64,000 nt of DNA from Negaprion brevirostris (Eukaryota). The position numbers and the translations under genes were made by a program. Positions 1 through 27,434 of this stretch are shown here, one piece after another. Numbering within the stretch: the first letter of the stretch is position 1; the number at the start of each line of letters is the position of its first letter. Under the pieces are notes generated by a model, which did not search any database, was not told where the DNA came from, and saw only the letters and a program-made list of their open reading frames with translations. The stretch covers positions 93,112,417 to 93,176,416 of the forward strand of contig JARDVH010000084.1 of NCBI GenBank assembly GCA_030324005.1, written 5' to 3'.

Positions 1-759
1 CTTGACNNNNNNNNNNNNNNNNNNNNNNNNNNNNNNNNNCCTGACAGGTCTATATCTCGGTCACGCTTCTGCAGTTGCAAATGTGTTTGTGCGGCCACAG
101 AAGTCTGCACAAGCGTAATAGCTCCCTCTGCTTCTTGATCAAACTGGCCGGCATGTAAAGCCCCGTCCACTTTCTCTGCTGGCTGTAATGATCTGGTCTA
201 TTCTTTTCATGTACGGAGTGGATCAGATTGAAAGTAAAGGATTGTCCAAAAATGTGATCTGAAACATTCCCATTTTCACGCTGGTTGGACAATTAGATTT
301 TTTCTCATAAAATTTTTCCATCAAAGTGTCGAATCTCTCAAAAACGAAACTAAAATAAATGCTCCCTACGCAGCGAAAGGTTTTGAAATATGTGTTCAGG
401 ACTTAAACTATACACTCATAGCGTTGCATCTTCGAGTAAATTTTCATTGCCAAATGGCGAATGCGTTTTCTAAACAGTGAAGCGTTCGTGTGTGTGCCTG
501 ATTCGTCTTGAACATTTCAACTTTAGAATTTGACAAAGTTGTTTTTGATAACACCAAAGCGGAATGTAAAATTGGAATTTACGTTCAAGAAGATTTAAAT
601 AAATTGGATTGGAAATGAAAAAAAGAAACAATACTGGTTAATAACTCTTCATTAGTAATCTTGCTGACGGAATGTTAATCCTATCGGTTTATTTGGATTA
701 CATCATCACAAGAACACGACATCACTCCGAAAAAAGAAACAAAACATTTCTGAATCTCT

Positions 760-1660
760 TGGTGACGTGGTGGCTGCACAGTAACAGTCACACGGCACAA
801 ATGCCTCACTGAAACAGACACTGTAACCGCCACCCTTTAACATTCAATGGTGTTACCAACACTGAATACCCCACGTCAATATCCTGGGCAGTGAGTTGAC
901 AAGAAAATCAACTGGACCACCACATAAACTCAATGGCTGCAAGAGCTGCTCAGAGGCTTGGAATATTGTGGCGAGTAATTCATCTCATGCTACCGCAAAG
1001 CATTTCCGCCTTCTGCAAAACAGCAACATGGAAAAAAGATGACCCACTTGCCTCGATGGGTGCGGCTATAAAAGCAGTCATGACGTTTCTCACCATCCGG
1101 AATGAAAAAAAAACTGCCCACTTGCTCGGCATCACATCTACAGATGTTCACTCTTTCCAAAGCCGATGCTCAGTTTCAGCTATATACAAGCAATTCACCA
1201 ACGAACCTTTTCAGAACAACTTCCGAACCCGCCCTCACTTTTGCCCATAAAGGCAAGGGCAGCAGGTTAATGAAAAAAANNNNNNNNNNNNNNNNNNNNN
1301 NNNNNNNNNNNNNNNNNNNNNNNNNNNNNNNNNNNNNNNNNNNNNNNNNNNNNNNNNNNNNNNNNNNNNNNNNNNNNNNCCAGAAAGGCAAGGGCAGCAG
1401 GTTAATGAAAAAAAAAAGCAGCACCTGCACTTTCCCCTCCAAGCCACTTTCCTTCCTAACTTGAAAATATATCATTCGCATATGTCCCTTCACAGTCGTT
1501 GGGCCCAAATCGTGGAATTCGTCCCCTAGAGTTATTGAGAATCAATTCACGTCACATGGGCTACAGCGAATCAAGAGGCGGTTCAGCATCATCTGCTCAA
1601 GGGCAACTGAGAATGGACAAACAACGCTGGCCAGCTGGTGAGCCTATGTCTCATGAATTA
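760..1660 (+). mobile_element. Decayed 3' fragment of an L2/CR1-group LINE (same family as 22125-24895)
   Basis: ORF 933-1250 (AARAAQRLGILWRV...) matches the C-terminal RT region seen at 24270-24880. It shares the 3' end gggcaactgagaatggacaa...gctggcca. Confidence 0.75.
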
Positions 1661-2285
1661 TTCATAAACGTTTCGGCAGTGTGTGAAGAGCAAACCAAAC
1701 ATTCAAATAAAGCAAACATGTGGACAATTATAACCGGAATTTCATTTCGGATGCCCCAAGGAACACTAATTTCATTAATTTAGTTGTTTTTTTTTCCGCC
1801 AGCCAAATAGACATTTCTGCGCTGCTACATTCATGTGTGTGTGTGTGTGTGTGTGTGTGTATTGGGAAAATATTGCACTTATTCCTGGATAGACAATAAA
1901 CTTGAAATTACAACCTCGTTTTAAGCAAGAGTTGAAATACTGATTATTCTGGAAGAACTGGATGTGGGATTCATCGTGGTAAAGATTTTGGATCAATGCG
2001 AAAAGTTGTTTATTGATTCATTCAAACTTGCAGCGAGAATCAATCCCTGTGGGAAAACCTGAACTCTATACAATGTGTAACTGTGCAAAAGTCAAGTATT
2101 GCCACGATTATCGTTAAAAAATACATAAATAAACGAACATATCTGCAGTTCCAAATGGGATGATCTAAATAGTCAAACCTCTGTGTTTTAAGACAGTGAC
2201 TATTTTATGAAAAGATGCTCGGGATGTGGAGAGACACAGAACTTTGTAATGCAACTTTTATGTAGGATATAAAACGTGTCCTTAC

Positions 2286-2308
2286 CGATGTGTTGATGGT
2301 AGCATTTT
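2286..2308 (-). pseudogene. Candidate 23-bp cytoplasmic micro-exon of receptor unit A
   Basis: tattttatcag|AAAATGCTACCATCAACACATCG|gtaagg has canonical AG/GT and lies downstream of the TM and 36-bp exons. The frame is uncertain. Confidence 0.3.
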
Positions 2309-3440
2309 CTGATAAAATATGTTTTTTTAACAGCAAAAATGGAACCTGATAGTTGCCTAAAATATATATTCAATGCACAGGGTGCTCGCTTTCTATCTTG
2401 TTCCAACTCAGCTCAAAACTTTTACTACCTGTAGATCTGCAGACACGTTTTGCCATTCTCTATACCCACCCTGTGAATCCATCTCAAGGTTAACTTCTGT
2501 TTTTTTTGCTACTGCTTTCAACATTTTGTGCTACGTATGTCTTTCCAATATTCATTTTGACATTAAAAATGGATGTATCTCTTCACTTGTCTGATGCAAT
2601 GTATATTATTTTTCAATTTGCAACTCAGCATATTTGGACGGCCTTTTTTTTCTCTCATAGATAACTTCTTTTATTTTCCAGTCTTCCAATGCACCTAATA
2701 ACATCGCTATATTGTACACTCTTATGTGCTTCTTCAATCGTTATATGCCCGAGGTTTCGTTCCATTAATCAGTTATTTTTAGGTTCAAGAAATGTCTTCC
2801 GCCTGAAACTATCTGCCTTCTGTGTTGAACATCACATCTGCTCTCTTTTGTCAAAAATAGACTGAATTACATGTCTTTCCCCCATGATACAATATCCTTA
2901 AATATAGACCATTATTTTCACGTAATATATTTATTCCGAATACGAAACTCGTTCAGAAGGTTTTTTATTCATCTTGTAGATTTCAATTGAAGTGTATTTT
3001 CATGCCCCCTGCTACATTGGAGCGCAGTGTCCTGAAACGCCGGGTTATTTTGTTTGTTCAGATCTTATTGAATAAAATAGTGATGCATTCCTGATATAAA
3101 TCATAGGCATGAGTGATATTGCTCTTTGTGACTAAATATAAACTCTGAATAAAGACCAATGTTTAATTGCTTTCTTCATAGTTATCTATTGGAATTTTGA
3201 CAATACATTTTAAAATACAAACTCTTAACGTGGAACAAAGATGTGTGTTTAACTTCAGCAGAAATGGGTAATGAATATGTCTGATTTCATCAGAAATGTT
3301 ATGTCCGTTACCTGCCACGCCCTACCTTTTGGCTCTCATTACCTTCGTTAATGCTCTTTTGCTTTTTGCTTGCAGGAACACTTGTTATTTTAAAAATTGT
3401 ATGCAAGTGCACATTTTTCGTGTACAAATTATTGCCTTAC

Positions 3441-3476
3441 CAGCTTTTTGCAGGGCTTTTTTCAAGTTTTCTAACT
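3441..3476 (-). pseudogene. 36-bp phase 1-1 micro-exon (ELENLKKALQKA), unit A juxtamembrane cytoplasmic helix
   Basis: ttgcttgttttag|AGTTAGAAAACTTGAAAAAAGCCCTGCAAAAAGCTG|gtaagg. The frame is open and it is paralogous to 10970-11005 and 51288-51323. Confidence 0.65.
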
Positions 3477-4119
3477 CTAAAACAAGCAATTATATAAATC
3501 CTGTTAGTAACTAATATTTGGATTTAATCAGATATATCCCAGTGCCATGACAATTTCTGGATAGATCATTGCAGCTGCGGAGCTTTTACGCAGAATTGAA
3601 ACATATGTTGTGTATGTGGAGAAGATTTGACATCTTGAGGTACTGTAAGTGAAAACTAATTCTTTATCAAAAGAAATGGCATCCAGAATACTTGATTATT
3701 GCCCTACATCTTCTAGAAACAGTACACTACATGATAAACAGAGAAAAATTACGGGAATATTCACAACAACTTATTCATAATTTGTGCCTGATACATCAAG
3801 ACTTTAAAACAATTTGTAATTATACGCTATCATATTGGTCTGGTTAATCTACTTAAAATGAATTTTCATTCATGTCTTAACATGAGTAATCTATAGAGAT
3901 GATGTTTCTCGGCTAATGTGGTTTATGTATATTGTTCTACCCTATTCGACATGATTGCTAAAATGTTCACTTTGTGAATAATTTGGGCTGACATATTTTG
4001 GAATGTATGTTCCTTAAGCAATCAACTAGGCGAAGTTAAGACGTGTTTCTTTATTATATGTTTACTATAACAGATCATAAGAACTGTCCAATTATGCAAA
4101 TTTCGATAAATGACATTAC

Positions 4120-4229
4120 CGGAAGCTTTCGTTGAATTCACGAAAAGGCACAGGAATGCAAAACAAAATGCACATATACAAATGGTTAATATGATTACGA
4201 TGGTCATGCAGTTCATGTTTTACATTCTA
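4120..4229 (-). pseudogene. Transmembrane-like exon, unit A
   Basis: Encodes MTIVIILTICICAFCFAFLCLFVNSTKAS then a phase-1 donor G|gtaatg. The upstream acceptor (tttgtag) is out of frame, implying a frameshift. Confidence 0.55.
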
Positions 4230-5099
4230 CTACAAATTATGTAACATAACATTAAGAATAGTCCATAGCAAACTTAAAACAAAAACCCAGTTGCTTAACT
4301 AACTTGCATGAGTGTTGTTGTGCCAACTTCATGAACTATTTTTGTACGTTGTTTTATGAAGTTCGTCTGCGCTGGAATCAGAAGTGAAATCCTGTGGCAG
4401 AACTGAAGTCAGGATTTCTCATTACAATCAATACGCCGTCGAACCGATTATGTCGTGCATATAATTGACAATAAGTCACATTTTAAAACGTTTACGACGA
4501 AACCATAATGTGCTTCTACAACATGCTTTCATTAGGAGATGTCTTTCTACGTTGCTTCCACAAGTCCAATTATCTACCGACTGTTATTAAAGAACGGGCT
4601 TTACAAGTCAACTTTACAAAGTTATCCTGTGTCCACATTGCCTCAACATGTATGTGGCTTGCAATGCACCGCTGGTTTTAACATTCAACGTCCCTTAGAA
4701 ATGCCTTACAAAGTAATTGTTCTAGGGGACTCATATATGTTGTAGCCACGTAGTCATTAATATATAAATATGATTCAAAAGGTAGAAACTGGCGGTTAAT
4801 ATATTTTTCTCTACAGAAATTTAGAGCNNNNNNNNNNTCGGCAACTAATTAGGATGTTTTCTTCCAGCAAATTCTAAAACAAACACTTGGAGTGACTATA
4901 TGGAATGAAGAATGTCGTGTTAGTCATGAGATGATGTCATTAGTATTAACAACCTATAGGACTCCGGCGTGTAACTGTATTACAAAAGAAGTTTGAAAAC
5001 GTTGACCAAAGTTGATTTCTTTAAAAAAAGGGCAACACAGAGACATTTGTTTTTAAAATGTTTATTTATTAGTGTCACAATAAGGCTTACATTAACACT

Positions 5100-6370
5100 G
5101 CAGTTAGGTTACTGTGAAACTAACAAATTTGATTGATTTCTTTTGAGGAGTTGACCACGTATGTAGACGAGGGTAATACAGTTGATGTAGTTTAGATGGA
5201 TTGCAGCATAGCCTTTGACAATGTCTGACGTGGGGAATTTGTAAAGACGATACATGCATATGCGATACAGAAAACATGTGAGAGAAAATTGGCTCGATTG
5301 TAGGAGAGGGACGGAAGGCTGTTTTAGAAACGGAAGGTCAGTATCCACTGGTGTACCAAAGGGACTATGTTCTATCCCCTATTACTTGTATTATTCGTCA
5401 GTGATATAAATGGCATTATTGACTGTGTGTGTGTGCGTGCGTGTGGGCGCGCGCGCGTTGGGGGGGTGGACATGTAGGGAGTGCGGGGACTCTGGTAGTA
5501 ATAATAAGTTTGCAGCCGGCACAATGTTTGGTTTGTTGGCTCTCAGAGAGGCTGAGTGTCATTATCAAAAGTACGATATAGACGGAATGCTAAATCGTGC
5601 GGGCAGTTGGCTGATGGGATTTAATATTGAGACGTGTTAGATAATACACGTTGGTTGGGGAAATTTGACAAATATTTGTTCAATGAATGAGAGAACTTTA
5701 TAATTGTATTTGGAATAAAATGTCTGTAAAGTTGGCATTTTAGTTGGTTGATTACAATTGCATTTGGGACACTTGCCTCAACAATCGAGACATAGGCTAA
5801 CCTTGTTGAGGCCACAGCTAGAGTAGTGTGTGCATTTCTGATCGCCACAAATTATGGGAGAATATGATTGGTGTGGAGGGGGTGCAGAGGAGTTTTACCA
5901 GGATGCTACCAGTGATGGGACATTTAAGTTATCAGGAAAGGTTGGGTAGGCGTTGTTTGTTGTCGATGGAGCAGGAATAGCTAAAGGCGACCTGATCGAG
6001 GTACATCAGATTATGGGGGGCGTGGACAGAGTAATTTGGGAACAGTTGTTTCCCTGGTTGAATGATCAGCTATAAAACGACAAACCCTCAAGATCAGGGG
6101 CGTGAGGTTCAGGATGGACGTGAGGTAAAACGTTTTTGCCCAGTAAGCGGTGATGCTCTGGAGCGTGGTGGCTAGAAGTGTTGCAGAAGCGGGTTCTCTC
6201 ATGATTTCTTTAAAAAAGCACTGAAATGGGAACTTGACACGTCATAAGGCTATGGGCCAAGTTCTTGTAAACTGGATAAGAGGGAAGTTCAGGAGTTTCT
6301 CGCACATCGATACAGGCTCGGTGGTTGGAAGGTGCTCTTCTGCACCGAACGATTATTTAATTCTAATATT
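5100..6370 (+). mobile_element. Decayed CR1-clade LINE RT/3' fragments
   Basis: Degenerate DVVxxDxxxAFDxV, GVPxG, YPLVE...KIRG and CR1 3' tail-like sequence, interrupted by a (TG)n/(GC)n microsatellite near 5425-5460. Confidence 0.7.
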
Positions 6371-8000
6371 CTAGGACTACCTAGAAAAAGCGGGGGGGTT
6401 TACGGACAGTTGAAAGTAATACAATCGGCTGCATGTCGAATGCTGCTAGGACAGCAGTTTTTCTTCAGATATATTAATGTCGCAGAGTTGGGTTTTCTGG
6501 ACATAATATAAATCTTTCTGGGTCATGCAAAATTTGAAACCATTGTCAACTATCAGGAGCATGTCAGTAGTCACCAAGAATATCCAGGCAGTCTGAACCA
6601 TTAGCCCAGGCCTATTAGATAATTGGATTGCACAGAAGTATGAACAGATGCGTTTTCACAGAACAATGCAAGTAAATAGGAAACAAATGATGCAAGTGTA
6701 AATGGAGTTTAGGAGCATGAGGACATCGTTGTGCAAGTGACCTATTGACTAAAGAGGAAAGCAACATTGAGAAAATATTCAATTTTCCAGTTTACGTATT
6801 ACAGTTGGAATTTTACTAAGAAATACAACATCAAAACACATTATACATAAGACAAGCATTTAAAGCAACACGTTTTCCAATGCAAATGCAGCCTGCCTCG
6901 GCCACTATTAAGGATCAGCCTTTGGGAGAGAAAAAAAACAAGAAGAAAGGTGCGTTGAAACTGAAAACGTCCGAAAGCCGCTCGAAAAATAGAAGAAAAG
7001 AAAGTTCGATATGTTTAACGTTTCGAAATAACTTTGCAAATACCAATTCAATACTGTGGCAGCAGCGAGCCCCGTGGGGGAGATTTAAATTGCGTCTTCG
7101 AAAAACAAAAAGGCGTTGTGTATGATGCGGTGAGAGAGGGTGTGGTCACCCTTGCCGTCAAAGTTAAAGACTATTGATTGATAGGTCAAGGATAATCCGG
7201 GGATTATGCGTTAGTTTGCAATGTTCAGTTACATTTTTGAGTAGATATATGATCAGGACACATTTGAAGCTCCCACACCAGAACTCGAGTGTCTAAATAT
7301 TTGAAATAATAGCTACCATCGGGTACAGAGAGGGCACTATTTTTTAGAAAGCGAGTGAGAGAATATTGTTGAGGGAACAGTCTTTGGTCACATTCAGAAA
7401 ACAAAATGAAGCAGGTGAAGGAACAAACTAAAGCATGCAAAGCAAAAGGATGGGAGCTCAAGGCTAGGACAGAAAGTATCTTAGAAATGCTTTTTCTTTT
7501 CTCTCGAACAAGCATAGAAATACCATGATTGACTGAAAGCTTGGCTTAAGTGTTAGTAACAAAAAGTGCATATGTGCATTGAAAGTTTTCAAAGAGGTGA
7601 AGTTGAGGAGGCAGTTACAACTGCTGTATCAACGTTATTTGTATCAGATACTTTAAAAAATCCACCATAGGACTGTCCTTGAGTGGGATTTTTTGCTGTT
7701 CTGTAACCACTTTTGCACCGAATACCTGATACACTTTCACACCAGAAGTTTCGAGATATTAAGTTTCAGAGAGGGGCAAATTGGACGAGGCTTTGTTAAC
7801 TTCCAACATTGTGAGGTAACTCCAGGTGAACATTACATTAGAGCTTAATTGATATTTGTAATTGTGAGGAGAATGATGGTAATTGAATGCACAACGAAGC
7901 ATAATGCGTTATTGCATCTTACCCGAGCCAACTTTGCCGTCTGTGAAATATAAATTGGATTTTAAAAATATATTTTTTTAAATCGCAAATTACTTGCTAC

Positions 8001-8368
8001 CATTAAGATGACAAATGTCCACAAACGATACTATCGTTTTAACCTGTTGGCGCAATTTGAATTGAATTGAATTTTCAGGATATCTTGGAACAAACTTATA
8101 TCGGAATTCGAGGCACGCAGGAAACAAGAGTCTTTCAATCAAAGAATGATTATATGGAGGAAAACAATATTTTGGTTTGACACATCGTTTCAAGCTATGG
8201 AATGTGAGCTACATCCGTTCTATGCGAGATTTAGTGGTGAAAAGTATTGGACTGACACTGGAACCAGGAGGTCACAGTTCATTTTTAATTCCAGTAGTTA
8301 AGTGTCAGGCAATTGCCTCAATATCTTCCAGTAGTGGAACGTAAAAAAATGAGAGAGGCTATGGGACA
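8001..8368 (-). pseudogene. Decayed Ig-like exon, membrane-proximal domain of unit A
   Basis: Phase-1 acceptor ttttcttttcatattatcag|TG. Reads LELKMNC-x17-LNLA*(TAG for W), later RLLFPACLEFRYKFV. Possible phase-1 donor AATG|gtagca. Contains stops and a frameshift. Confidence 0.45.
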
Positions 8369-8489
8369 CTGATAATATGAAAAGAAAATTTGAAAGGACA
8401 CGGCCACTTCTCATTGCCCCTAAACAAAATCGTAAAATCGTATCAACGTCAATAATGGTAGTGTGGGTGTCAGTTTACTGTAGAATCGG

Positions 8490-8915
8490 TTTGGAGCGGA
8501 ATGGAGCTGGAAGCAGTGGTTGCATATAAGTGCAGTCTAAGATTAATTCGGGACCTCCGTGTTTGGGGGTCACAGTCCTTGGATTTGCATTCTGGTAGAA
8601 AACGAAACAAGCTTAAATGACAATGAAAATATGCTTTCCGTATTTCTACCCTCGAATGTTGGATACTGGCCAGATGACTGTAAGCTAACAGCCTTTTTCC
8701 GAAAAAAAAATGTTGAATTCGCTTTGATCCGGAACATTGACATGAACATTTTGTACAATCCCAAATGCAGATAACCCAGCATCATTACAGCGCGTTTCAG
8801 CACCTTTGCTGAATGAAAAGGATGATGCCGCAGCGCTGTTCACATCACCTGGGCTGCTCTCATTCTTGAAAACAGCAGTGTCATCAGCATCGCGTGCTTC
8901 GCTTTAGGCTTTCTG
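8490..8915 (-). pseudogene. Decayed Ig-like exon, unit A
   Basis: Across frameshifts: PGDV/EQRCG...ICIWDC/VQNVHVNV and QYPTFEGR, sharing motifs with neighbouring domains. Confidence 0.35.
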
Positions 8916-9209
8916 TACTTTGTTGCAGACAAAAAGTAGGGCCAATTTAACCTGCCCGGAATACTTCAACACTCCGTCCGTCAACAGAACGCTGATTTTA
9001 TTTAATTTTCTCGTTTTCCCATTAAGAAATGCAAATATTTCCCCCAGCTCTTACATTTGAAAATGTTTCACTACTAAAGAATTCCTCAGCGAAAGTGGTC
9101 AGATCAAAATAAAAGTTTGCTTTATTTTGTGTTTATACACTGACACGGCGAAAGTTGTTTCGCCATGTTCATCCTTTTCAACTCGCACACAGTAATGAGG
9201 AATTAGCAA

Positions 9210-9560
9210 ACATGAAGAGTGTTCATGCAGTTGTCGCAATTAAAATACAAGTCGGCTTGACAAGTGTCCAGAGTCCTGAATCCTGAGTTGACGAGAATAT
9301 TCCATCCAACGCAAGAGTACTGATTGCAGAATGTGTTGTCTTAAAATAATGAGGCCGGTCAAGACGTGAAGAATGAGTTCGCTTGGAGACACGAGTTCTA
9401 ACGTTTACGTAGTTGGCAGGTTTGAAAAATGCCACAGTCTATCTGTAGGCACCAGCTCGCCGTTACGCCGTGCAAGGTCGTGCCCGAAATGCCGGACAAA
9501 CTGGAATTGCCGCAGTTTTGTTCCAACGGGCTTATTATTGTTCACCTTAATGGGAGGATG
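9210..9560 (-). pseudogene. Decayed Ig-like exon, unit A
   Basis: LEQNC-x19-W (VTASW), NYVNV, STLALDG, and F-strand QDSGLWT/CQA, which is restored by removing 2 nt. Confidence 0.5.
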
Positions 9561-9949
9561 TCATGTCACAGATTCTCGATTTTGGACTCAGTGTCTATAT
9601 TTCCAAGGCCGGAATCTAGGTGTTTAACTGGAGTGGGGACATATTGTGTAGTTGGGATCGCTCGTGTCAGGTTAACTAACTTCTGCTCTCTTTATCGAAA
9701 TCGTGGTTTTAAATGTGACAGCTTTGGTCATGAGCTGCATTTATGGGGCCTTAAGTCGAATGAAAATTTTCGTTTGTGTGGAGGTTGATGGACAAGACTG
9801 CGCTTCAACGTGGTCATTTTTTTTAACTTCGAAACAGATACAAGGAATTAAATTATTGATTGAAAACAAAAGCCAGTCAACCAGTTTCTATGTTAACAGC
9901 AAAACACTGTGGAAAATATTTCAGATCAGCTGGATAGCCAATTCATTTT

Positions 9950-10255
9950 CCCAAATGCAGGAAAGTCTAAAACTAGAAGGCATAGGTTTAAGGTGAGTGG
10001 GGGGAAATACATAAGAGTCCAAAGGGGCAATTATTTCACACAGAGGGTGATGAGTGTCTGCAACAAGCTGCCACAGATAGTAGTAGAGGTCGCTACAATC
10101 TTATCTTCTAAAAAGCATTTGGACAGTTACATTGGTAAAATGACTATAGAGGGACATGGGCCAAAAGCGGCCAATTGGGACTAGCTTATTGGTTAAACAT
10201 AAAGGGATGGCATGAACAAGTTTGGTATTGCATATTCCCTGTCATGTTGTCATTG
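9950..10255 (+). mobile_element. CR1 LINE 3' fragment
   Basis: SKTRRHRFKVSG...NYFTQRVMSVCNKLP is a typical CR1 ORF2 C-terminus. Confidence 0.85.
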
Positions 10256-10274
10256 CTTAGAAATTGGTAGATAC

Positions 10275-10673
10275 CTTTTTGAGAGGTTGCGATCGGCAAA
10301 GCAAACAACCAATCAACTGAACACTTAAGGATTCTGATGACAACGTTAAAAGAAATTATTCTGATGCAACAGCAGTATCCCCAAATTTGGACCAGCGCTA
10401 GGCCTTTAAGTGAACCACGAAGTTGTTCAGAAATTGATGCCGATGGTGCCTTTGTAATATAGTTAAACATGGTAACGATCAGTCTTTAAATTCACCACAA
10501 TACGGCTCATAGTAACTGGTAACGTTCGGAAGTGTGACCTGTCCAATCATACTTAAGAAGCCAACGGCAAACCGTTACAGTGATTTGCAAGCATAAGCAT
10601 GAATTGATGCAATCATTTCCGGTTTTGCTGTTTGACCTGAAGGATCTCGAGGATTGATTGTCAAACCCGTGGT
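10275..10673 (-). pseudogene. Decayed Ig-like exon, first domain of unit A
   Basis: Phase-1 acceptor cacttttccag|AC and phase-1 donor AAAG|gtatct. Motifs GNDCINSC-x17-W, PNVTS, VNLKTDRYHV and GYCCC fall in shifting frames. Confidence 0.4.
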
Positions 10674-10969
10674 CTGGAAAAGTGCGGAGACGAATAACCC
10701 GCAAATATTCAGAATGTAACAGCAGGAAGAACACCAGCATAGTTAGGACCATGCACATGCCGGTATTACTTACATTTCGAGATGAGTTTATAATAATTTG
10801 GTATTATCGGTTTCTATTCGTTTAATGATGCCACGTTTATTGAAAAAAAAACTGAACTGACTCCACCTCTGCACTCATCAGTACGCCATCACCCCAATAA
10901 ATCTTAAGTAAGCAGGAAGGTGCAATGTGCATATCTTAATAAAATCTCTCTAATGGTGCATTTCCTTAC

Positions 10970-11005
10970 CGGCATGAGCGACCTTTAATTTCAGGATTTC
11001 AATCT
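10970..11005 (-). pseudogene. 36-bp phase 1-1 micro-exon (EIEILKLKVAHA), unit B
   Basis: tttctaccccttcag|AGATTGAAATCCTGAAATTAAAGGTCGCTCATGCCG|gtaagg. Same length, phase, donor and E-x-E-x-L-K...A pattern as 3441-3476. Confidence 0.65.
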
Positions 11006-12084
11006 CTGAAGGGGTAGAAATGGAAATGTTATTCCATTATACTAAATAGTTGTTTCAATAAATGACGTGCATATTGCAGAAATAAGATTTCAAACATGCT
11101 TCGACTTTTAGCCGGGCACAAAACTGTGAAACTTAAAGCATCAGCCTTGTTCAGTTTAAAGTTCCGTGTAAGTCTGCTTAACTAAAATCTTACAATGGTA
11201 AAAGCTCTCTCAAAGCGAAGGTCAGCATGCATTTCGGCAGCATTGACACAGCGAAAGCAACTGCAATGTATTTCTGAGTTTCAAAATAATTACTATTAAG
11301 CCTGAATTCAACTAAGAGTAAATTACACCACACAATTTAAATAAAAAGCCAAGGAGAGCGAGAAGATTTTTCGAAATGAAAACCAGGATTTATTTCCGAT
11401 GCAGAGTTAAAATGTGAAAGTGGGACTGTTCACGGAAAATTTATCTGAAGTCATGTAATGTTACACGCAGGCGCAGACTGACAGGACACATTGAGAGTCA
11501 TTTAATAGTCTACCATAAACTACGCTCTAGACAGTTTGTACGTCAAATATGTTCGTGCCATCGTAAGGATGTTTTATTCTTTTGATGTCATACCCGTATG
11601 GAACTTCGTTTGTGTTTTTTTTTTTCTCTTTTAGTGCACATTTCGTCCGTTAACATGAGTCATGTTAAAATCTGCCGATTTCTAACATCTGTGGTCCACC
11701 AATGCCACACTTCAGTGTGGATTGTATCCTGCAAATTGGAATGTTTCCACTTAACGCCTTTCTTTTAAATCAAAGGTCTACAACGTTAATCGAATGTGAT
11801 CCTTTCGATCAATGCTAATGAGATGAAGAGAAACACTAAACACTGATCTCCAGCTGAAGATATCCTACAGGATCGAATGTTAATCCGGATGCAACATGTT
11901 CGTAAGTCCCCACATGATATTAAAGAAGTGGTTAAATTCTCCACTGAATAGGAAGAAGAACGCAGAATTAGCAGATAGCGGGCAGAGTTATCATATGAAA
12001 AATGTTGTCGTTGTCCAGATTCGGTCTATATGTATATATGTATATATAGGCATTGCATATTGGTAACAATATATTTGCGTAATA

Positions 12085-12170
12085 TTAACGGTAGCATGTT
12101 TGTACAAAACGCCATGTAAAACCAGCAACTAAAATTGAAAAAAAAACAAAACAATCTAAATAATAGCGAT
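12085..12170 (-). pseudogene. Transmembrane-like exon, unit B
   Basis: Strong phase-1 acceptor ctgtctttttcttcag|AT. Reads DRYYLDCFVFFSILVAGFTWRFVQTCYR*. The donor is lost. Confidence 0.45.
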
Positions 12171-12554
12171 CTGAAGAAAAAGACAGTAAATTCTAGAAAT
12201 CCTCATATGCCCTGGCAGAAACTTTGAGGAGATAAATTAACTTTTCTTTTCAGATGAAAGTTTATCATTCTGAACTTCTTCTCTCCGACAATGCTGACGC
12301 ATATAGTGAGTATTTTGCAGTATTCAGTTGTATATATTTAAACACAGTTTTAAAAGTTGATCAAACGAACATATTACTAAAATCAAATAATTAAAAATCA
12401 ATGAATGGGGAGATTATTTAACATAGTTACCGATATCTTTTGCCAACATCTGCTTCACTGTAAGAAAGTCACACAAAATCGATCTTAATACGATCCGTTT
12501 GGCATATATTTCAGCAAGCCAATAGATGAATGTTTTGGGCATAAGTATTTACTT

Positions 12555-12893
12555 AAAATTGATTTTGAGTGTTATCGTTTCTTCAGATTCCCGATGATCA
12601 TGAGTATTACTCTGATGACAAAGAAAAGAGTAAAGTCCATCCAACATTTGAAATTTGTAACTGGTTATCTCCATTTTTCTTGCAAGAAGTTGAAGCGGAA
12701 ATCGTCTAGTCGTAACCATGCTATGATAGCCCCAATACAAATTAACATTAACATTTCGGAAACATGATTGCCAAACAAATGTTAAACTTCCTGCGCTGAT
12801 TCTAGCCTGACTACAGAGCGAATGTAAAGGAGGACATTCTAATGCCATAGAGTCACTTTAATTGAGGACAACTGAACGTTAACCGGGTCGGCC
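12555..12893 (-). pseudogene. Ig-like (V-type spacing) exon, membrane-proximal domain of unit B
   Basis: PG*RSVVLN*SDSMALEC-x20-W (LTFVW)...RFPLQLLARKMEITSYKF...DGLYSFLC...TITLKI, with about 71 aa between the Cys residues and two in-frame stops at the 5' end. Confidence 0.6.
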
Positions 12894-13689
12894 CTGCATT
12901 TTATTTCACTGTATTTGCAATGCTCATTATTACCAAAGTCTAAAGTTTCAGTCCGAACCATGCCGCATGAATAAACAATATCGATGCGATACAATCCCAA
13001 ACCAATATCTAAAAGTGTGCATTACAACCAAACAATTGTTGAGTCGTCATAGTAAGTGTTCAGATCGAGGCCCAATTGTTTAATGTCCGAGACAGTTTTT
13101 TTGCTCCGTCGGGAGAACGAAAATTTCAGCAGAAATCCTCTATCACATTTTAGGAACATTCAACGAAATGCATGTTAATAAAGTAGCCACCGTCATCCAC
13201 CAACGCATGCCCCATGTCGCCAACCACTGATGCATGTCCCCGCTCGCCCCAGCCACGAATTACCGACCCCCGTTATCCACTTCCATTTCCAGCTCAATTC
13301 CTTCCATAGCACCCAATGGACCCAACTCATGGGAAGCTCCAATCGACCTCTCTCTCCCTGAATCTGAACTGCCGAACGGCCTCAATGGGCTTGGTCAACC
13401 AACTCGATCACGCCTGCTGTCACGCATCCCACCACCCCCTCCCCCCCACCACCGCCACAAGCCTCCACTGAACCCCCCCCCCTCCCCCCACCCCACCTCC
13501 CAGTCCACAACATTGATTTCGATCAGCTTNNNNNNNNNNNNNNNNNNNNNNNNNNNNNNNNNNNNNNNNNNNNNNNNNNNNNNNNNNNNNNNNNNNNNNN
13601 NNNNNNNNNNNNNNNNNNNNNNNNNNNNNTGGTGGGAACCTCTCCACGTGGCGTCAGTGGACATTAGCTGACCGGGCGTCGCTAACATC

Positions 13690-14430
13690 GAGACGCAGGA
13701 ACGTAGAAATTGGAAGCAGGAGTAGGCCAATTCATCCTTCGAAACTGCTACACCATTTATTTTGATCATGGTTGATCATCAAATTCAACACCCTTTTCCC
13801 CGCGTCCCACTATACTCCTTGATCCCTTTAGCTCCAGGAGCTATATCGATCTTTTTTTTTCTTGAAATCCGACAACATATTGGCCTCATCTACATTCCGT
13901 GTTAGTAAATGCGTCACATTCATCACTCTCTAGATGAAGAAATTCCTCATCACCTCAGATCTAAACGATTTACTCACTATCCTCAACTAAGACCCCTGGT
14001 TCTAAACACCACCACTGTTGGGAACATTGTTTCTGAAACTAAATCCCTGCTAGAACATTATTGATTTCCATGAGATTCCCTCTTACTTTTAAACAGCAGT
14101 GAATATAATACGAACCGAATTGGCATCTCCTCATATCAGACATCTGCCATCCCAGGAATCAGCCTGGTAAACCTCTATAGCAAGGACATCCTTCCTCAGA
14201 TAAGGACACCAAAAATGTAAACAAAACTCCAGGTGTGTCCTCAGCAACGCCCTATACAATTGCCACAAAACATCCATATAGTCACATCCTCTTGCTATGA
14301 AGGCAGCATACAATTCACCTTCTTTATTCCCTCTTGTATCTGTGCGCTTACTTTCAGAGACGGGTGCCCTTCAATGTCTTGTTCAGTATCCACCTTTGTC
14401 AATTCACACGTATTCAAAAAGTATTTTTTT
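13690..14430 (-). mobile_element. CR1 LINE 3' fragment
   Basis: ORF 14131-14313 QLYRALLRTHLEFCLHFWCPYLRKD, plus the CR1 3' tail at 13700. Confidence 0.85.
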
Positions 14431-14829
14431 TCCTAATAAAATGTAAATTCTGATGTTGGCATGATAATCAGCCTCATGTTTATTTCCGGCGCCTGGGAAA
14501 ACGTCTGGGAAAGTCGTGGTCGCCTGGATTCCGGGCGTTAGACGGTGTCCCTGAAAAGGAAGGAATTGATACCGCAATGCATGATTTTTTTTCAATCAAA
14601 TGAAAATATTTAGTCAGTTCTTGCACTCGGCATGGCTGACGCAATCCGACAATTTACCCTCTATGTGGCTGTCAAACACTCCAGCTAAAGCGCAGTCCCA
14701 ATGCAGTAGATGAGCGGTCTCAATGTGTCGGTATTAGCCGCGTCCAGTCACATCACAGAGGCAGAGAAGGGATACTTATTTTATCTTCGCGACCCAGTAG
14801 CCAGCTTTTGGGCAGTGACTCATGAAGTA

Positions 14830-15250
14830 GACGATATGCACGTTTTAGTGACTGCGAAAATCCTGGTGAATTCCGAGTCATAGCTATGGTCCGTTATGAT
14901 GCACCCTCAGTAATGAGGTAAACCGTCACAGGACTCGATGTACTTAAAATCTAATATTTAAGCGATGATGTCACCCAAAGACAACGAATCTATCCTCTTT
15001 AAATAACGTCACTTTGCTGGGCCTCTGGGGCACAGAAAGTTCCGTCCACGTGTTAAGTGTTACGTTTTAACTCCACTGCCATCGGAAATACTTCATTCAT
15101 CTGTAGCGTTTCCAATTAAGGTGGGAGTGGGTTCTTAGTATTGGCACTAGGAGGAATTTCATGAGTAACTCTGACACATTGGCGTTCCAAGATGCCAATT
15201 CTGCCCCTTGATTTACGTCCCCGTTCTTGTTACCGACCAACCTCAAATCA
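14830..15250 (-). pseudogene. Decayed Ig-like exon, unit B
   Basis: VNQG.../LERQC.../LNWKR...NVTLNTW...KEDRFVV...LNI/DFKY...DGLPHY*GC...SE. Motif order parallels 12555-12893. Confidence 0.45.
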
Positions 15251-15599
15251 CGTTTGGAAGGAGCCTTTCAACTATTAATGTAAGAATATTCATTCACGTT
15301 CTTGAACATTTAATGAATACCATTCAGCAAAAGCGTATTGTCGAGGGGACGACCGTCAGCCGAAAGGAAAATCCTGTATTTGCAAAATCCAACTTGAACA
15401 CTGTTCAAAGTTATAGAATAAAAACGGATCATTTCGAGGTGAGGAAATTCCTTTCGATGGGTAACAATAAGTGGGTCCTCCGCCGGTTCAGCCTAATGGC
15501 CGCTGACCTAAGATGGTAGTTTAGCAGGGAAGTAAATAAAGCAGAATTACTAGATCATAGATCAGGTAACGTGGCTTTCATTCCATAAAACTAAACACG

Positions 15600-15900
15600 T
15601 CCATCCGGAGTTTCTCCTGTCTCGGACTCCCTGTCAGTCAAAGAAACCCCCTGTAAATTGCAAATATGCCTCCCTCGAGCATTATTCTGCGAGATATATT
15701 CGATATCTGCCTTGCTCTTTAGGTTGGCAATCGGCAACAATAGCGTCCACTTGTCAGTCATGCATTGTGATGCCCCATTCAGGAATAGACTGCTGATACG
15801 TGGGAGTCTCATGGCGGATTAACCCAGAAATGAGGCTACATCACAAGAGAGCAAATCTATGGTTCAGAATTTGCCAGGATGTTGACAGTCACGAGAGAAA
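15600..15900 (-). pseudogene. Possible decayed Ig-like exon (3' part)
   Basis: ADIEYISQNNARGRHIC...DRESET resembles the ends of the 16.4 kb and 12.6 kb domains. Confidence 0.25.
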
Positions 15901-15914
15901 AAAATAAATTTCAT

Positions 15915-16238
15915 AGCATAGCATCATACAGGCCAGGAGGAGTTCATTCGGCACATCGAGTTTGCATCGGCCACAGTCCCACGCAGGCCCGACTCTTACC
16001 TCATGCATTTACCATAGCCACCCCCACCCCACCAAGGTGCCAGGCCAATCTACCTAACATGGCCAATCTACCTAACCCTCACATCTTTGGACCGTGGGAG
16101 GATACAGGAGAACCTACAGAAAATTCATGCAGTCACGGAGAGAATGTGCAAACTCCATACAGACACTGCCCCAAGCCGTGATTCGGATCCGGGATCCTGG
16201 TATTGTGAGTGCTAACCACGGTGTCTCCGCGACACCCT
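15915..16238 (-). mobile_element. HE1-related tRNA-derived SINE, old copy
   Basis: The reverse complement matches the 48433 SINE core (ctgtatggagtttgcacattctctccgtgactgcatg...). Confidence 0.8.
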
Positions 16239-16339
16239 TTTGTGCAAAAAAAAAAATCTGTGATCCTGATAACCGCCTTTGCAAAAAATCGAATCCTTCC
16301 AGTAGATTGATAAGGGATGTTCACTGTCAGCGGTGCAAC

Positions 16340-16700
16340 CATTTGAACCTGGAGATTTAAAACCCCTTAGCAGCGGTTTGGCAGCTATGGTCAAGATCCG
16401 TCATTAGAATACATATACTCGATATGTTTCATCCATTCATCGAGGGACAAGATGCAGTTGTGGATCATCTCAGCCCCGAACTGTATTCTGTTCAGCTGCG
16501 CAAGTGAACAAACTGGTTGTGTATCAATCACATGAAGCTGTATCAGACAAGCAAATTGAACAGAAGCCTTGCGCTTTGGCGAAATCAAATCCCTACCACA
16601 ATTTGGTAATTTCAAGTCGAATTTAAAAAATAAATAATAATGAAGCCTCAATCCAACATTTTTAGTTATCATGAATGATACACCCATTAACAATAATCCG
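16340..16700 (-). pseudogene. Decayed Ig-like exon
   Basis: DLKLPNC-x16-C (VQFAC, TGT where the family has W)...LSLDE...IEYMYSNDGS/HSCQT. Confidence 0.3.
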
Positions 16701-17024
16701 GATACTGACACCTGAACATTAGGACACATGCTTCAAATGGCAGCTCGAAGTCCTAGCATTTAGAGCTTTGGTGGCACAATTCTTATGACATAGAGTGCTA
16801 ATGCAACTCTGAAAACGGCAAACAGGGTAAGAAAGCATACGTCGGATCCTCATTTTATGTGTCATTTAGGCCAATTGTATGTAATTTAAATACATATGTG
16901 ACCAATTTCGTCACAGGTTTCGTTTTTGTTTGTTTTGGAAGACTGTGCTAACAGAATTGTGGCTAATAATGTCTGGATAGAACATTAATGTTTCAAGATC
17001 ATCAGGCAGGTCAGGGTAATTTTT

Positions 17025-17370
17025 TTTTCATTCATGGAAAATAGGCGTCACTGGCTGGATCAACATTTAAAGATTGTACCTAGTTGACCGTGGAGGGCAG
17101 GTGAAATTCAACGACATTGATTTCACTCTGGAATCACATGTAGGCCAGACCAGGTAAGGACGCCTGGATCCCTCCACTGAAAGGCATTGGTGAACGAAAT
17201 GTTTCTGGATTGGACAGCCGACAGTGGTTATCACTGACTTCTTAATTCCAGATCATTTATTTAATTGAATTAAAACTGCACTATCTGCAGTGGTGGGTTC
17301 GAACCACGGTCCCCATGGGCTGACTTTCCGGATCTCGTGATAATACCACGAAGGCATCTACCTCCCCATT
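17025..17370 (-). mobile_element. Retroposon 3' fragment (SINE/LINE tail)
   Basis: tttttttcattcatgg...ggcgtcactggctgg is the reverse of the 3' tail at 24830-24895. Confidence 0.6.
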
Positions 17371-17749
17371 AGGATTATAAATTTATCGCCTCAATCCCAC
17401 TAAAAACCTGAGCTGAGCTAGGTTTGCACATCAAAGACTAAAGTGTGCGAAGTTCAACTGCATTGCATACTTTTCGGGAATTAAACAATACGGGAGTTTA
17501 GCAATGTCAACACATTCTGGCAATTCTCGGAGTGAAAAAAAAAGTTATGCGTCATATATGGTCTATCTGAAAGAACGACGAAGGAAATAAGGCTGTCTTC
17601 GTTTTAACGAGAAAGTGATTGGATAATGGCACACAGTAGATCAATGGCATCCGCAGATATTACTAATTCATTTGGGTTCCCAAAGGGAAGTTTGGTTACA
17701 TTGGAGAGCCATGTGCAGCGAAAGAAATGACGCACAAATTTCATTTATG

Positions 17750-17990
17750 TGCGTCATAAATGTGGGCGTTGATGCCAGGGCTAGTATGTGCTGCCCATAA
17801 CGACCGTGATCAGTGGTTGGTCCTGGCTTCAGTCAAGTTACTATGAAAATCAGAGCCTTGAAGTAACTCTATTTTCTCAACTGTTGGAATGGGAGAAATG
17901 CATCGGCTAAGTTTTATGTGGTACAGTCCAGCTATAGACAAGACATGCCTGTCTGCTTGTGACTGCACCGTGGCATTATAGGCACGCCAA
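17750..17990 (-). pseudogene. Possible decayed C-type Ig exon following the V exon
   Basis: FGVPIMPRC.../LVYSW.../TTDHGRY in shifting frames. Confidence 0.3.
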
Positions 17991-18057
17991 AGCTAATTCA
18001 TTGACTGAGGGAGGATAATCGAGATAAGAGAGCATTTTGTCAAATTGCACCGGGTCC

Positions 18058-18390
18058 AAATAACTTGTTGGTTGCGATTCCCGTAGGCGTGGCACCATGT
18101 CATGCTGTGCACCACGAGACACTGGCAATAATGATTATTTTAGCAGATTTGTTTTCTTTTTCCTCTGATGAAATAATCCTTATATCAGTGTCGAATACAA
18201 TTTTGAAGATTAGTTCTTCCGAAATAGTGATGTGCATAGCCATGTTATCCCAGTGCATCGACAGCATTGGCAGCAAACTGGACACATTGAAGATTATTTG
18301 GATATGTACGGCCCAAAAGAAAACAAGACAAGGTGAATGTCGCACCTATCACCGCACATCTACGCCTTTGCACGTGCTGCACAGTGAAAA
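18058..18390 (-). pseudogene. Decayed IgV exon with B7/butyrophilin-like motifs
   Basis: One frame with 3 stops: FTVQHVQRRRCAVIGATFTLSCFLLGRTYPNNLQCVQF...HYFGRTNL...*NNHYCQCLV...QQV. The acceptor AG appears mutated. Confidence 0.55.
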
Positions 18391-19469
18391 TATATGCAAT
18401 CAATAAACAAAGTTACACAGGCTCCACATCTGCTGCCGGATGCGAACGTTGGGCCTCACTTATCAGGAAATACTATTTAAAAAAAAAATCCCAGCCTATT
18501 TCCCTAGTGGGTTAATAGCTGCTCAGCCACATATAACCCCTTTAAACCCGAATATGACGAAGTCCACCTCTCCTCGAGTGTTTCACCTGCCGGTACTCGA
18601 TTAACAGCAAGTGGTAGAAGGTGTCATCTGTCGCGTTTTTATGCAGCAGATAAATCACCGCAAAAAGTTCACTACAACTCGATTGTTTTCCACCATTGTC
18701 ACTCAAATTCTGAGCTTATTGCAGCCTTGTCAACAAAATAAGTAAACGAAGGGTGTGGTGGAAGAGACAATAGATCCATAGTTCATAAGATCTAGGAGCA
18801 CAACTGGGCCTTTTGTGAGAAACGGTCAGATACTCACTTTTATGATCCCCCCCTTGAATCAAAGACACGGATGAGTTCAGCTNNNNNNNNNNNNNNNNNN
18901 NNNNNNNNNNNNNNNNNNNNNNNNNNNNNNNNNNNNNNNNNNNNNNNNNNNNNNNNNNNNNNNNNNNNNNNNNNNNNNNNNNCTAACACATTTATTTTAT
19001 ATGGTGTAAATTAGTTTGTTTTCCTATCTCTTTTAAGCTATGCTGAAGACCCCGGGCGCGCCTGCCAGTCTCATGATTTTTTTTCTTCTTTTTCTATGTG
19101 TTTCATCATCTGCTGGTCTTAGCGTTTAACCCCTTAGGTTACAATAACGGTTCTGTCATGGTTTCCGCCCCACATGGTTTGACTCAAAAATTACACTACC
19201 ATCCCTTACACTTTGGGCTAATCAGATCTTCTCCACCATTCAATCATGGATTATAAACTTCTCGACCCCATTCTTCGCTAATTCCCCATCACTTTTGACT
19301 CTTTTCCATTTAAGAACCTATCTGCCTCTGTCTTAAAAACTGGCCTCTACAGCATTCTGAGAAAAAGAATTGGATGTGAAAACGATGACACTTGATAGAA
19401 ATGAAACTTTTGGGGCCACTGGAGCACTTAAAATCTGAGCACGAACAAAGGGCTCAGCACGTATCTCAA

Positions 19470-19950
19470 TACAGACTGGAGTCATACCTCATCCAAAGGC
19501 AGATAGTGGTTGTTGGTGGTGGCTGATCAGTCCCGTGACATCCATGCAGGGCTTCCTCAGTGTACTGCCAGTGACTCAAGCGTATGCAACTGATATGCAA
19601 ATGACTTTCTTCCCTTCAGGTCAGAAAGTGAGATGCACTCTGCTCATAGTATGCATTTGGCATCATCCATTATTGCTCAGGTGCTGATGAATCTGTGTCT
19701 ATATTCAACCGAAATTTATAAGCTGTTCAGTTATGGCTCAAAACAGTAACCTAATATTCCTTCAGCAAACCAACGTACAACTTAAATAACAAGAGAAATT
19801 ATAGCCACTTGAAAGTCGGTGTAATTTCAATCACTGCATCTACAACTATCACCTTGCGATTTTATTGATCATAAACAAAACTGAAATGGCCAGGAAAATA
19901 GGGGTGCAGAACGAGCAGATCAGAACCTTGAACTTTTAATAAGGGCAAAT
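19470..19950 (+). mobile_element. Highly decayed L2/CR1-group RT fragment
   Basis: Similar to 23620-24030 (gtggttgttggtggt...cag...gcagggcttcctcag). Confidence 0.55.

Positions 19951-27432: not shown

Positions 27433-27434
<2 letters not shown>

What the first reader, a model, noticed from the sequence alone, without database searches (positions are those of the whole stretch)
3441..3476. Three paralogous 36-bp micro-exons stay intact while neighbouring exons are broken
Seen: 3441-3476 (ELENLKKALQKA), 10970-11005 (EIEILKLKVAHA) and 51288-51323 (DIDNILHKLGMH) have identical length, phase 1-1, open frames, pyrimidine-rich acceptors and GTAAG donors, and each lies downstream of a TM-like exon. 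They encode amphipathic acidic-then-basic helices, reminiscent of the short coiled-coil exons after the TM in butyrophilin/BG genes. This is the strongest marker of the repeated gene unit. The preservation may reflect continued splicing or only a small mutational target.
Basis: partly seen in the sequence, partly recalled or inferred. Interest (0 to 1): 0.7.

Follow-up and report, generated by a model that had tools for sequence, protein, structure and literature searches.

The report
Giant shark micro-exon coiled-coil gene
The tiny 36-base segments are likely exons from the middle of one enormous cartilaginous-fish gene that would build a long helical rod from over a hundred such pieces and likely ends in an immune-type B30.2 binding domain; they are not markers of three broken butyrophilin genes.

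Summary
The three minus-strand 36-nt AG..GTAAG phase-1 segments are there. They do not mark three paralogous transmembrane genes. They belong to an array of 27/36/18-nt phase-1 micro-exons running more than 490 kb on one strand: 109 catalogued, about 1,090 codons, one junction stop. The array is collinear with RefSeq coiled-coil proteins of catshark and electric ray. Neighbouring paralogues end in a B30.2 exon, and these domains form their own chondrichthyan branch apart from sampled TRIMs and butyrophilins. No Ig or RING/B-box exon was found in 1.06 Mb, and no homologue has a transmembrane segment. The true neighbours in the window are intact 27-nt exons. Two of the three segments score far above the antisense control; 51288-51323 does not and would put a stop at its junction, so it may be decayed or skipped. 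Not shown: RNA junctions (no RNA run listed), the first exon, and this gene's own B30.2 exon (gappy assembly). The scan already noted this family in at least six genomes. Verdict: real, BG/butyrophilin-tail-like in design but a distinct family; new variant of a known kind.

The parts
3441..3476 (-). 36-nt phase 1-1 micro-exon (12 codons, hydrophobic at a/d positions); strongest of the three
   Evidence: score 36.3 against plus-strand max 16.6
7923..7940 (-). candidate 18-nt phase 1-1 linker exon (Gly/Ser-rich), weak
   Evidence: fits the linker position after this module in homologues; not in the confident catalogue
10970..11005 (-). 36-nt phase 1-1 micro-exon; third exon of the family's conserved 27+27+36 module
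   Evidence: score 26.5; unchanged in two related organisms
12431..12457 (-).
   Evidence: 21.2; 5 of 9 identical to P0004 256-264
20753..20779 (-). 27-nt phase 1-1 micro-exon; first exon of the module; its last base with the next exon's first two gives the Met codon conserved in homologues
   Evidence: 18.3
27772..27795 (-). candidate 24-nt phase 1-1 exon: strong donor, weak acceptor; uncertain
33069..33104 (-). candidate fourth 36-nt exon (GTGAG donor), weak; if real it would remove the junction stop after 51288
   Evidence: below the trained thresholds
48119..48136 (-). candidate 18-nt exon, uncertain; would give a stop at the junction with 51288
51288..51323 (-). 36-nt phase 1-1 segment with strong acceptor and 1/4/8 hydrophobic pattern but atypical last base and residues; diverged, decaying or skipped exon, or chance
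   Evidence: 5.1, inside null; only junction stop of 108
63089..63115 (-). 27-nt phase 1-1 micro-exon
   Evidence: 15.6, just under the null maximum of 16.6
1..64000 (-). whole window = exon-sparse middle of 'unit A', a micro-exon array from about +292,000 to about -200,000 in window coordinates (G000:C84)

Best explanation
The segments are likely successive in-frame exons of one very long cartilaginous-fish gene (unit A, at least 490 kb, at least 109 micro-exons) that would encode a coiled-coil rod of about 1,100 residues and likely ends, like its tandem paralogues, in a B30.2 (PRY-SPRY) ligand-binding domain. SHOWN: the array, its one-strand bias, open frames, uniform phase 1, heptad pattern, collinearity with RefSeq proteins of other species, and B30.2 terminal exons on seven paralogous loci. 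INFERRED, how it works: a 36-nt exon supplies a-d-a-d core positions and a 27-nt exon the following a position, so a 36+27 pair makes exactly three heptads. The junction codon is nearly always Glu/Asp, so any exon can be duplicated, lost or skipped without frameshift, and the rod grew by tandem copying of exon-plus-intron cassettes. The rod would oligomerise (about 160 nm at a recalled 1.48 A per residue) and hold B30.2 heads together as a multivalent binder or scaffold, like a butyrophilin/BG cytoplasmic tail without Ig ectodomain, or a TRIM without RING/B-box. Location (cytosol probable), ligand and tissue are untested.
For: Untrained scan of 664 kb: 50 27-nt and 51 36-nt candidates on minus against 7 and 13 on plus; other lengths show no such excess. 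Untrained pattern over 1.064 Mb: 46 v 7 (36 nt) and 37 v 5 (27 nt). Hydrophobic fraction at positions 1/4/8 of 64 36-nt exons is 0.91/0.89/0.75; 54 of 108 neighbouring pairs in unit A are 36+27. Junction residue is E in 84 and D in 11 of 108. In 4 of 4 copies of the 27+27 module examined, including 20753|12431, the split codon rebuilds the Met that homologues have there, though only 10 of 152 exons end in A and 7 start TG. The conceptual unit-A chain aligns to S. canicula XP_038671249 (P0004) with score 666 against a maximum of 486 in 100 exon-order shuffles, and to Narcine XP_069775418 (P0013) with 550 against 378; 36% identity over 682 residues, so a paralogue. The upstream neighbour matches S. 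canicula XP_038672306-10 (B30.2 67% identical, micro-exons in order). The downstream gene matches P0004 (62%). Five loci on C121 have the same 27/36-nt exons before a B30.2 exon. RefSeq isoforms differ by 8-, 11-, 12- and 23-residue cassettes or 9 residues. P0004's rod has period 3.51; a low-confidence fold of the ray member P0025 gives long helices then a beta sandwich (pLDDT 62.5). A decayed duplicate at C84 ~91.62 Mb has a disrupted B30.2 and sparse, partly stop-bearing micro-exons, unlike unit A.
Against: No RNA evidence for this gene. No B30.2 exon for unit A or the next unit in the assembled 1.064 Mb; the ray and S. torazame models most like its rod carry no SPRY. No orthologous protein of unit A was found, and its 5' 42 exons are not collinear with any homologue beyond shuffles (275 v max 304). 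A first chaining test of unit A on P0004 was no better than shuffled (375 v mean 372). The first exon was not found, and P0004 starts about 40 micro-exons downstream of where its array begins, so RefSeq N-termini cannot exclude a distant Ig, TM or signal exon; one skate model (P0172) begins with a hydrophobic stretch. One junction stop follows 51288. In 9 duplicated cassettes exons are barely more conserved than flanks (220/278 = 79% v 2569/3430 = 75%). The trained splice model was seeded on 72 minus-strand exons, so one search is partly circular.
Confidence: 0.78

Rival explanations
1. Units A, B and further blocks are not separate genes but one gene of 1-1.8 Mb, built from internal block duplications, ending at a distant B30.2 exon (the decayed one at ~91.62 Mb or one not seen). 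This changes the gene's size, not the nature of the exons.
For: No B30.2 or terminal exon between units; micro-exons occur in every 50-kb bin from +300 kb to -600 kb and in most sampled blocks beyond; earlier scan notes read related loci this way.
Against: Unit B is collinear with P0004 from near its N-terminus (367 v shuffled max 282), as a separate paralogue would be; exon density drops at the A/B border (2 exons in -250 to -200 kb); gaps of 1.6-9.9 kb lie at the borders and the assembly appears to misplace pieces.
Confidence: 0.3
2. Unit A is a recently dead or partly decayed copy; the window's stretch (long introns, an exon that makes a junction stop) no longer yields a full rod.
For: Junction stop 51288 to 20753 and a 30.5-kb exon-free interval, the longest in unit A; no own B30.2; a decayed paralogue exists in the cluster; 2% neutral decay would give about 4.5 stops of 145 against 3 of 148 seen.
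Against: 107 of 108 junctions and all 109 catalogued exons are open (openness was a selection criterion for the catalogue); 5% decay predicts about 11 stops; exon 10970 and its acceptor are unchanged in two relatives while 19 sites vary in the 421-bp stretch (chance of none in the 36 nt is about 0.18, so weak). Skipping 51288 keeps the frame.
Confidence: 0.12
3. One reading: three tandem butyrophilin/BG-like transmembrane genes, mostly broken, each keeping one post-TM coiled-coil exon.
For: Phase-1 heptad exons and nearby B30.2 exons are butyrophilin-like (PMC5938342 passages); 3 hydrophobic splice-flanked sites on minus against 0 on plus.
Against: No IgV/IgC hit at E<1.7 in 1.064 Mb read through stops, while a held-out control scores E 2e-25; no coding paralogy inside the window; no TM in 10 homologues (max hydropathy 1.37); B30.2 tree separates the family from sampled BTNs.
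Confidence: 0.04
4. The matches are chance intronic look-alikes.
For: 51288 scores inside the antisense null; 7 plus-strand matches of the pattern exist in 1.064 Mb.
Against: Strand and length bias, module order and rebuilt Met codon; 0-1 candidates per strand in three unrelated 40-kb loci.
Confidence: 0.02

Closest known systems
Unnamed chondrichthyan coiled-coil-B30.2 proteins in RefSeq: S. canicula XP_038671249 ('zinc-binding protein A33-like') and XP_038672306-10 ('TRIM39-like'), Narcine XP_069775384-90 and XP_069775418-28 ('golgin A6-like'), Callorhinchus XP_042191566-8 ('TRIM58'), Leucoraja XP_055510696, Hemiscyllium XP_060706632 ('BTN3A1-like'), Cetorhinus, Rhincodon
   Same: Same rod modules in the same order, same 9/12-residue exon units; Pfam finds only SPRY (weak PRY) in those scanned.
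   Different: Names are automatic and misleading (no RING/B-box/Ig in those scanned); models are short or 5'-truncated; none is the orthologue of unit A.
Chicken BG genes and the zipper protein (PMC5938342, PMC4046983; passages read)
   Same: Long coiled-coil written in many tiny in-frame exons, variable in number, alternatively spliced, in a tandem cluster.
   Different: BG has signal, IgV and TM exons, 21-nt one-heptad exons (13-37 per gene) and a tail without B30.2; here 27/36/18-nt exons, more than 100, no Ig/TM found, B30.2 on paralogues.
Butyrophilins BTN/BTNL (PMC12841164, PMC4046983 passages; PDB BTN3A1 B30.2)
   Same: Heptad exons followed by a B30.2 exon; best PDB match of the neighbour's B30.2 is BTN3A1.
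   Different: BTNs have IgV, IgC, TM and only a few heptads; the family's B30.2 lies on a separate 100/100 branch from 7 sampled BTN-type and 19 TRIM-type domains.
Group 2 TRIM genes, RING-B2-CC-PRY/SPRY (PMC2533329, passages read)
   Same: Coiled coil then PRY-SPRY; lies in a SPRY-rich cluster on C84 85-102 Mb.
   Different: TRIM is defined by RING/B-box, not found; group 2 genes span 1.4-27 kb with mostly 6-7 exons, against more than 490 kb and more than 109 exons here.
Enterophilins (leucine-zipper plus B30.2 architecture recalled, not from a call; only a table row and a reference title on enterophilin-1/SNX1 seen in PMC13749957)
   Same: As recalled: soluble long heptad rod ending in B30.2.
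   Different: Mammalian intestinal proteins; relationship not tested here.

Membership tests
Butyrophilin (BTN/BTNL) | Extracellular IgV and IgC exons | tested here: not met
   No hit at E<1.7 in 1.064 Mb, six frames, stops read as X; held-out control E 2e-25; none listed upstream of six paralogous loci. Gaps (2-30% N per 50-kb bin) and the unfound first exon leave a loophole.
Butyrophilin (BTN/BTNL) | Transmembrane exon before the heptads | tested here: inconclusive
   None in 10 homologues; one frame-compatible, weakly flanked, single-copy hydrophobic candidate at 59641-59820; homologue models may be 5'-short.
Butyrophilin (BTN/BTNL) | Small in-frame heptad exons followed by a B30.2 exon | tested here: inconclusive
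   Met for seven paralogous loci; unit A's own B30.2 not found.
Butyrophilin (BTN/BTNL) | B30.2 groups with BTN B30.2 domains | tested here: not met
   13 family rows on one side of a 100/100 branch, apart from 7 BTN-type and 19 TRIM-type rows; midpoint root, bootstrap not settled.
Chicken BG | Signal + single IgV + TM exons | tested here: not met
Chicken BG | Tail of 21-nt one-heptad exons | tested here: not met
   Unit A: 47 of 27 nt, 44 of 36 nt, 11 of 18 nt, 1 of 21 nt among 109; same principle, different unit.
TRIM | RING and/or B-box | tested here: not met
   Best hit E 0.32 in 1.064 Mb; Pfam finds none in the family proteins scanned.
TRIM | TRIM-type coiled coil | tested here: not met
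   Own TRIM-CC profile best E 4.7 (short exons limit sensitivity); no Pfam TRIM_CC in family proteins.
Chondrichthyan micro-exon coiled-coil-B30.2 family (unnamed) | Array of 27/36-nt phase 1-1 exons with a/d heptad pattern | tested here: met
Chondrichthyan micro-exon coiled-coil-B30.2 family (unnamed) | Conserved modules in conserved order | tested here: met
   666 v shuffled max 486 (P0004); 550 v 378 (P0013); holds for the 3' 67 exons, which include the window, not for the 5' 42
Chondrichthyan micro-exon coiled-coil-B30.2 family (unnamed) | Terminal B30.2 exon of the family's type | tested here: inconclusive
   Not found for unit A
Chondrichthyan micro-exon coiled-coil-B30.2 family (unnamed) | Spliced transcript | not testable with these tools
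   No RNA holder listed

The most novel reading that the evidence does not exclude
One active gene of 1-1.8 Mb spells a coiled-coil rod of 2,000-3,000 residues in 200-300 frame-symmetric micro-exons and tips it with a B30.2 head. Cassette skipping sets rod length and heptad register isoform by isoform, giving cartilaginous fishes an undescribed, length-variable B30.2 sensor family that is neither TRIM nor butyrophilin and is older than the shark-chimaera split.
Probability: 0.2. Interest if true: 0.75.

Novelty: new variant of a known kind. Interest (0 to 1): 0.55.

Why it matters
If right, sharks, rays and chimaeras share a multi-gene family of B30.2 proteins with very long rods that annotation breaks up and misnames (TRIM39-like, A33-like, golgin-like, BTN3A1-like). 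It would show the BG/butyrophilin trick of writing a coiled coil in tiny frame-symmetric exons, used independently and at several times the scale with a 9+12-residue unit. It adds an unrecognised branch to B30.2 evolution in a TRIM/SPRY-rich cluster. Five full-text searches listed no paper whose title or abstract start describes it; the library lacks most subscription journals. For the finding as submitted, the three exons themselves are ordinary members of that array.

Tried and rejected
Self-comparison of the window for repeated gene units: only dispersed repeats. Motif scans for lectin, fibrinogen, C1q, TNF, Ig and RING exons (motifs recalled): noise only. Search for a signal-peptide first exon: 4 candidates sense v 5 antisense before unit A, 0 v 1 before the downstream gene. 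A match to the skate model's hydrophobic N-terminus falls in what looks like a LINE fragment. A 75-nt phase 1-1 exon just upstream of unit A could not be assigned. RNA: no RNA holder listed for the neighbour's B30.2 region; no evidence either way. Laying relatives' contigs on 3000-13000 showed about 95% identity, but the table of differences was cut (610 rows hidden), so exons 3441 and 12431 were not read out, and 51288 was not covered. No orthologue of unit A among 4 hits or 164 proteins screened. First cassette-versus-flank comparison used too loose a filter and was discarded, then redone. Salmon, bowfin and coelacanth coiled-coil-B30.2 proteins fall with TRIM/BTN, not with this family. Atlas search gave only SPRY/PRY clusters. 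No dimer prediction was obtained, so oligomer state is untested. Hedgehog adjacency first suggested a Shh-locus gene; rejected. Literature on a fourth shark hedgehog: nothing listed.

Full report
1. Observation. The three segments lie on the minus strand exactly as stated: 36 nt, AG after a pyrimidine tract, GTAAG donor, open in phase 1-1. In the window the pattern is found 3 times on minus and never on plus. Over 1.064 Mb it is found 46 times on minus (42 open) and 7 on plus (6 open), and only minus-strand matches have hydrophobic residues at positions 1, 4 and 8 (16 v 0). They are not a special trio: pairwise identity 19, 14 and 14 of 36 equals the average among 64 such exons nearby (15.8, sd 3.4) and exceeds random 36-mers (9.3). 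They are old copies of one exon type. Two score far above the antisense null; 51288-51323 does not (36.3, 26.5 and 5.1 v max 16.6).

2. What the window lacks. Self-comparison shows only dispersed repeats. Profiles for IgV, IgC, RING-B-box and TRIM coiled coil, built from proteins found here, hit nothing in 1.064 Mb read through stops (best E 0.32); a held-out IgV control scores E 2e-25. Hydrophobic 19-mers occur 32 times on minus and 20 on plus. Three sites on minus (none on plus) have splice-like flanks; one keeps the 1-1 frame and is single-copy. The recognisable neighbours are open 27-nt exons at 63089, 20753 and 12431.

3. The array. The window is G000:C84:93,112,417-93,176,416. An untrained scan of 664 kb gives 50 27-nt and 51 36-nt candidates on minus against 7 and 13 on plus. 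A model trained on 72 of them (partly circular) gives 84 and 64 on minus, 83 and 62 open, against 4 and 7 on plus. Between about +292 kb and -200 kb I catalogue 109 exons (47 of 27 nt, 44 of 36, 11 of 18, 7 others), 3,285 nt over 492 kb, median intron 3.2 kb: unit A. The window is its sparsest part. A second block, unit B (49 exons, -223 to -505 kb), follows, and micro-exons continue in sampled blocks to C84 91.20 Mb. I read 91.72-92.51 Mb only in 10-kb samples.

4. Identity. Upstream of unit A a gene of about 20 micro-exons ends in a B30.2 exon at +348.6 kb. Its match is S. canicula XP_038672306-10 (67%), whose sequence contains the micro-exon peptides in order. A second B30.2 exon at C84 91.196 Mb matches S. 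canicula XP_038671249 (P0004, 945 aa, 62%), again with micro-exons in order. Rod homologues occur in S. torazame and Narcine, B30.2 homologues in Callorhinchus, Leucoraja, Hemiscyllium, Cetorhinus and Rhincodon. Pfam finds SPRY or nothing in those scanned, and none of 10 has a transmembrane segment. Five loci on C121 repeat the design. In a tree of 42 B30.2 domains the 13 family rows stand on one side of a 100/100 branch, apart from 19 TRIM-type, 7 BTN-type and 3 other rows; the root is midpoint and the bootstrap had not settled. Unit A's conceptual chain aligns to P0004 at 666 (100 exon-order shuffles: mean 424, max 486) and to the ray protein P0013 at 550 (max 378), with 36-40% identity, so it is a paralogue. 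The signal comes from the 3' 67 exons, which include the window. An earlier exon-by-exon chaining of all of unit A on P0004 did not beat shuffles. Inside the window, 20753, 12431 and 10970 form the family's conserved 27+27+36 module, and the codon split across the first intron is the Met that homologues have there, as in 3 of 3 other copies examined.

5. How it most likely works. Shown: 36-nt exons are hydrophobic at codons 1, 4 and 8 (0.91, 0.89, 0.75), 27-nt exons at codon 3 (0.63); 54 of 108 neighbouring pairs are 36+27, which is 21 residues or three heptads; 95 of 108 junction codons are Glu or Asp; P0004's rod has period 3.51. Exon-plus-intron cassettes were copied in tandem (9 pairs with alignable flanks). 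RefSeq isoforms of relatives differ by whole cassettes of 8-23 residues; that such isoforms rest on transcript data is my assumption about RefSeq. Inferred: a long oligomeric coiled coil carrying B30.2 heads, acting as a multivalent binder or scaffold, probably cytosolic. Sequence constraint on the rod is loose (exons 79% v flanks 75% in duplicated cassettes), which fits a spacer. A low-confidence fold of a ray member shows long helices then a beta sandwich. Ligand, tissue and oligomer state are unknown.

6. Is it alive? Three of 148 splice-selected candidates carry a stop; neutral change of 2, 5 and 10% would give about 4.5, 11 and 19 of 145. Old decay is therefore excluded, very recent decay is not. 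A decayed duplicate in the same cluster looks different: disrupted B30.2 at ~91.622 Mb and 14 sparse candidates upstream, four with stops. Exon 10970-11005 is unchanged in two related organisms while 19 sites vary in 421 bp, none in 10967-11048; one change hits donor position +4 and leaves GT. That is weak alone. Against: exon 51288 ends in T and 120 of 145 exons begin AA, AG or GA, so it makes a stop with the next confident exon, the only one in 108 junctions. It is decayed, skipped, followed by an exon I score weakly (33069), or chance. No RNA run was listed.

7. Open ends. Unit A's first exon and B30.2 exon were not found. The assembly is gappy and seems to misplace pieces: a Shh-type exon 2 sits inside unit B while the Shh-type exon 3 lies on another contig. 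The genome search also did not list the decayed B30.2. P0004 begins about 40 micro-exons into its array, so database N-termini are unreliable and a distant signal, TM or Ig exon is not excluded. Whether A and B are two genes or one megabase gene stays open; I favour separate genes about 2 to 1.

8. Comparison. It works like a BG or butyrophilin tail: many small in-frame heptad exons (PMC5938342, PMC4046983, passages read), followed by B30.2 as in BTN (PMC12841164, passages). It fails membership of BTN and BG (no Ig found, different exon unit, separate B30.2 branch) and of TRIM (no RING/B-box; group 2 TRIM genes span 1.4-27 kb, PMC2533329, passages). Five searches listed no paper on the family. 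The scan's own notes describe it in at least six genomes; my reading was set down before I saw them, and they are not independent support.

9. Verdict. Observation partly confirmed, interpretation partly supported. A real, under-annotated gene family of cartilaginous fishes; new variant of a known kind; interest 0.55.

Noticed in passing
L061:1926-2187 (+), G000:C84 ~92.614 Mb, window coordinate about -498,000: Intact Sonic-hedgehog-type exon 2 (87 codons, one difference from the PDB SHH sequence) lying antisense inside unit B, with no N gap between it and family micro-exons 6 kb away. The genome has 3 such exons and 3 Hint exons, only one pair on the same contig; the Shh-type exon 3 is on C132 in gappy sequence with no exon 2 in the 33 kb read upstream. 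Probably a misplaced or chimeric assembly piece.
   Followed up: partly
G000:C84 ~91,621,500-91,622,000 (L160, minus): Decayed B30.2 exon with stops and frameshifts, close to the intact one at 91.196 Mb; ends a partial, decaying duplicate of that gene.
   Followed up: partly
window coordinates +232,000 to +136,000 (G000:C84 93.25-93.34 Mb): The 5' part of unit A uses 36+18-nt pairs (18 residues, 11+7) with Cys-bearing helices, instead of 36+27; this would change the supercoil locally.
   Followed up: no
L053:9220-9294 (minus), window coordinate +293,220 to +293,294: 75-nt phase 1-1 exon with strong splice sites directly upstream of unit A's first micro-exon; contains a Cys and a basic stretch; unassigned.
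   Followed up: partly
G000:C121 6.23, 8.31, 8.81, 8.85, 10.95 Mb: Five more loci with 27/36-nt micro-exons before a family-type B30.2 exon: a second cluster on another chromosome-scale contig.
   Followed up: partly
G000:C84 85-102 Mb: Dense cluster of SPRY exons, the largest share of the 143 matches in the genome.
   Followed up: no
window 55625-55767 and 55912-56054: 143-nt inverted repeat, 90% complementary, 144 nt apart; looks like a MITE-type element.
   Followed up: no
P0148 (Salmo salar XP_045550229) and P0113 (Amia calva): Bony-fish proteins with a hydrophobic N-terminal segment, very long repetitive coiled coil and C-terminal PRY-SPRY: same design, but their B30.2 groups with TRIM/BTN, so apparently independent.
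   Followed up: partly
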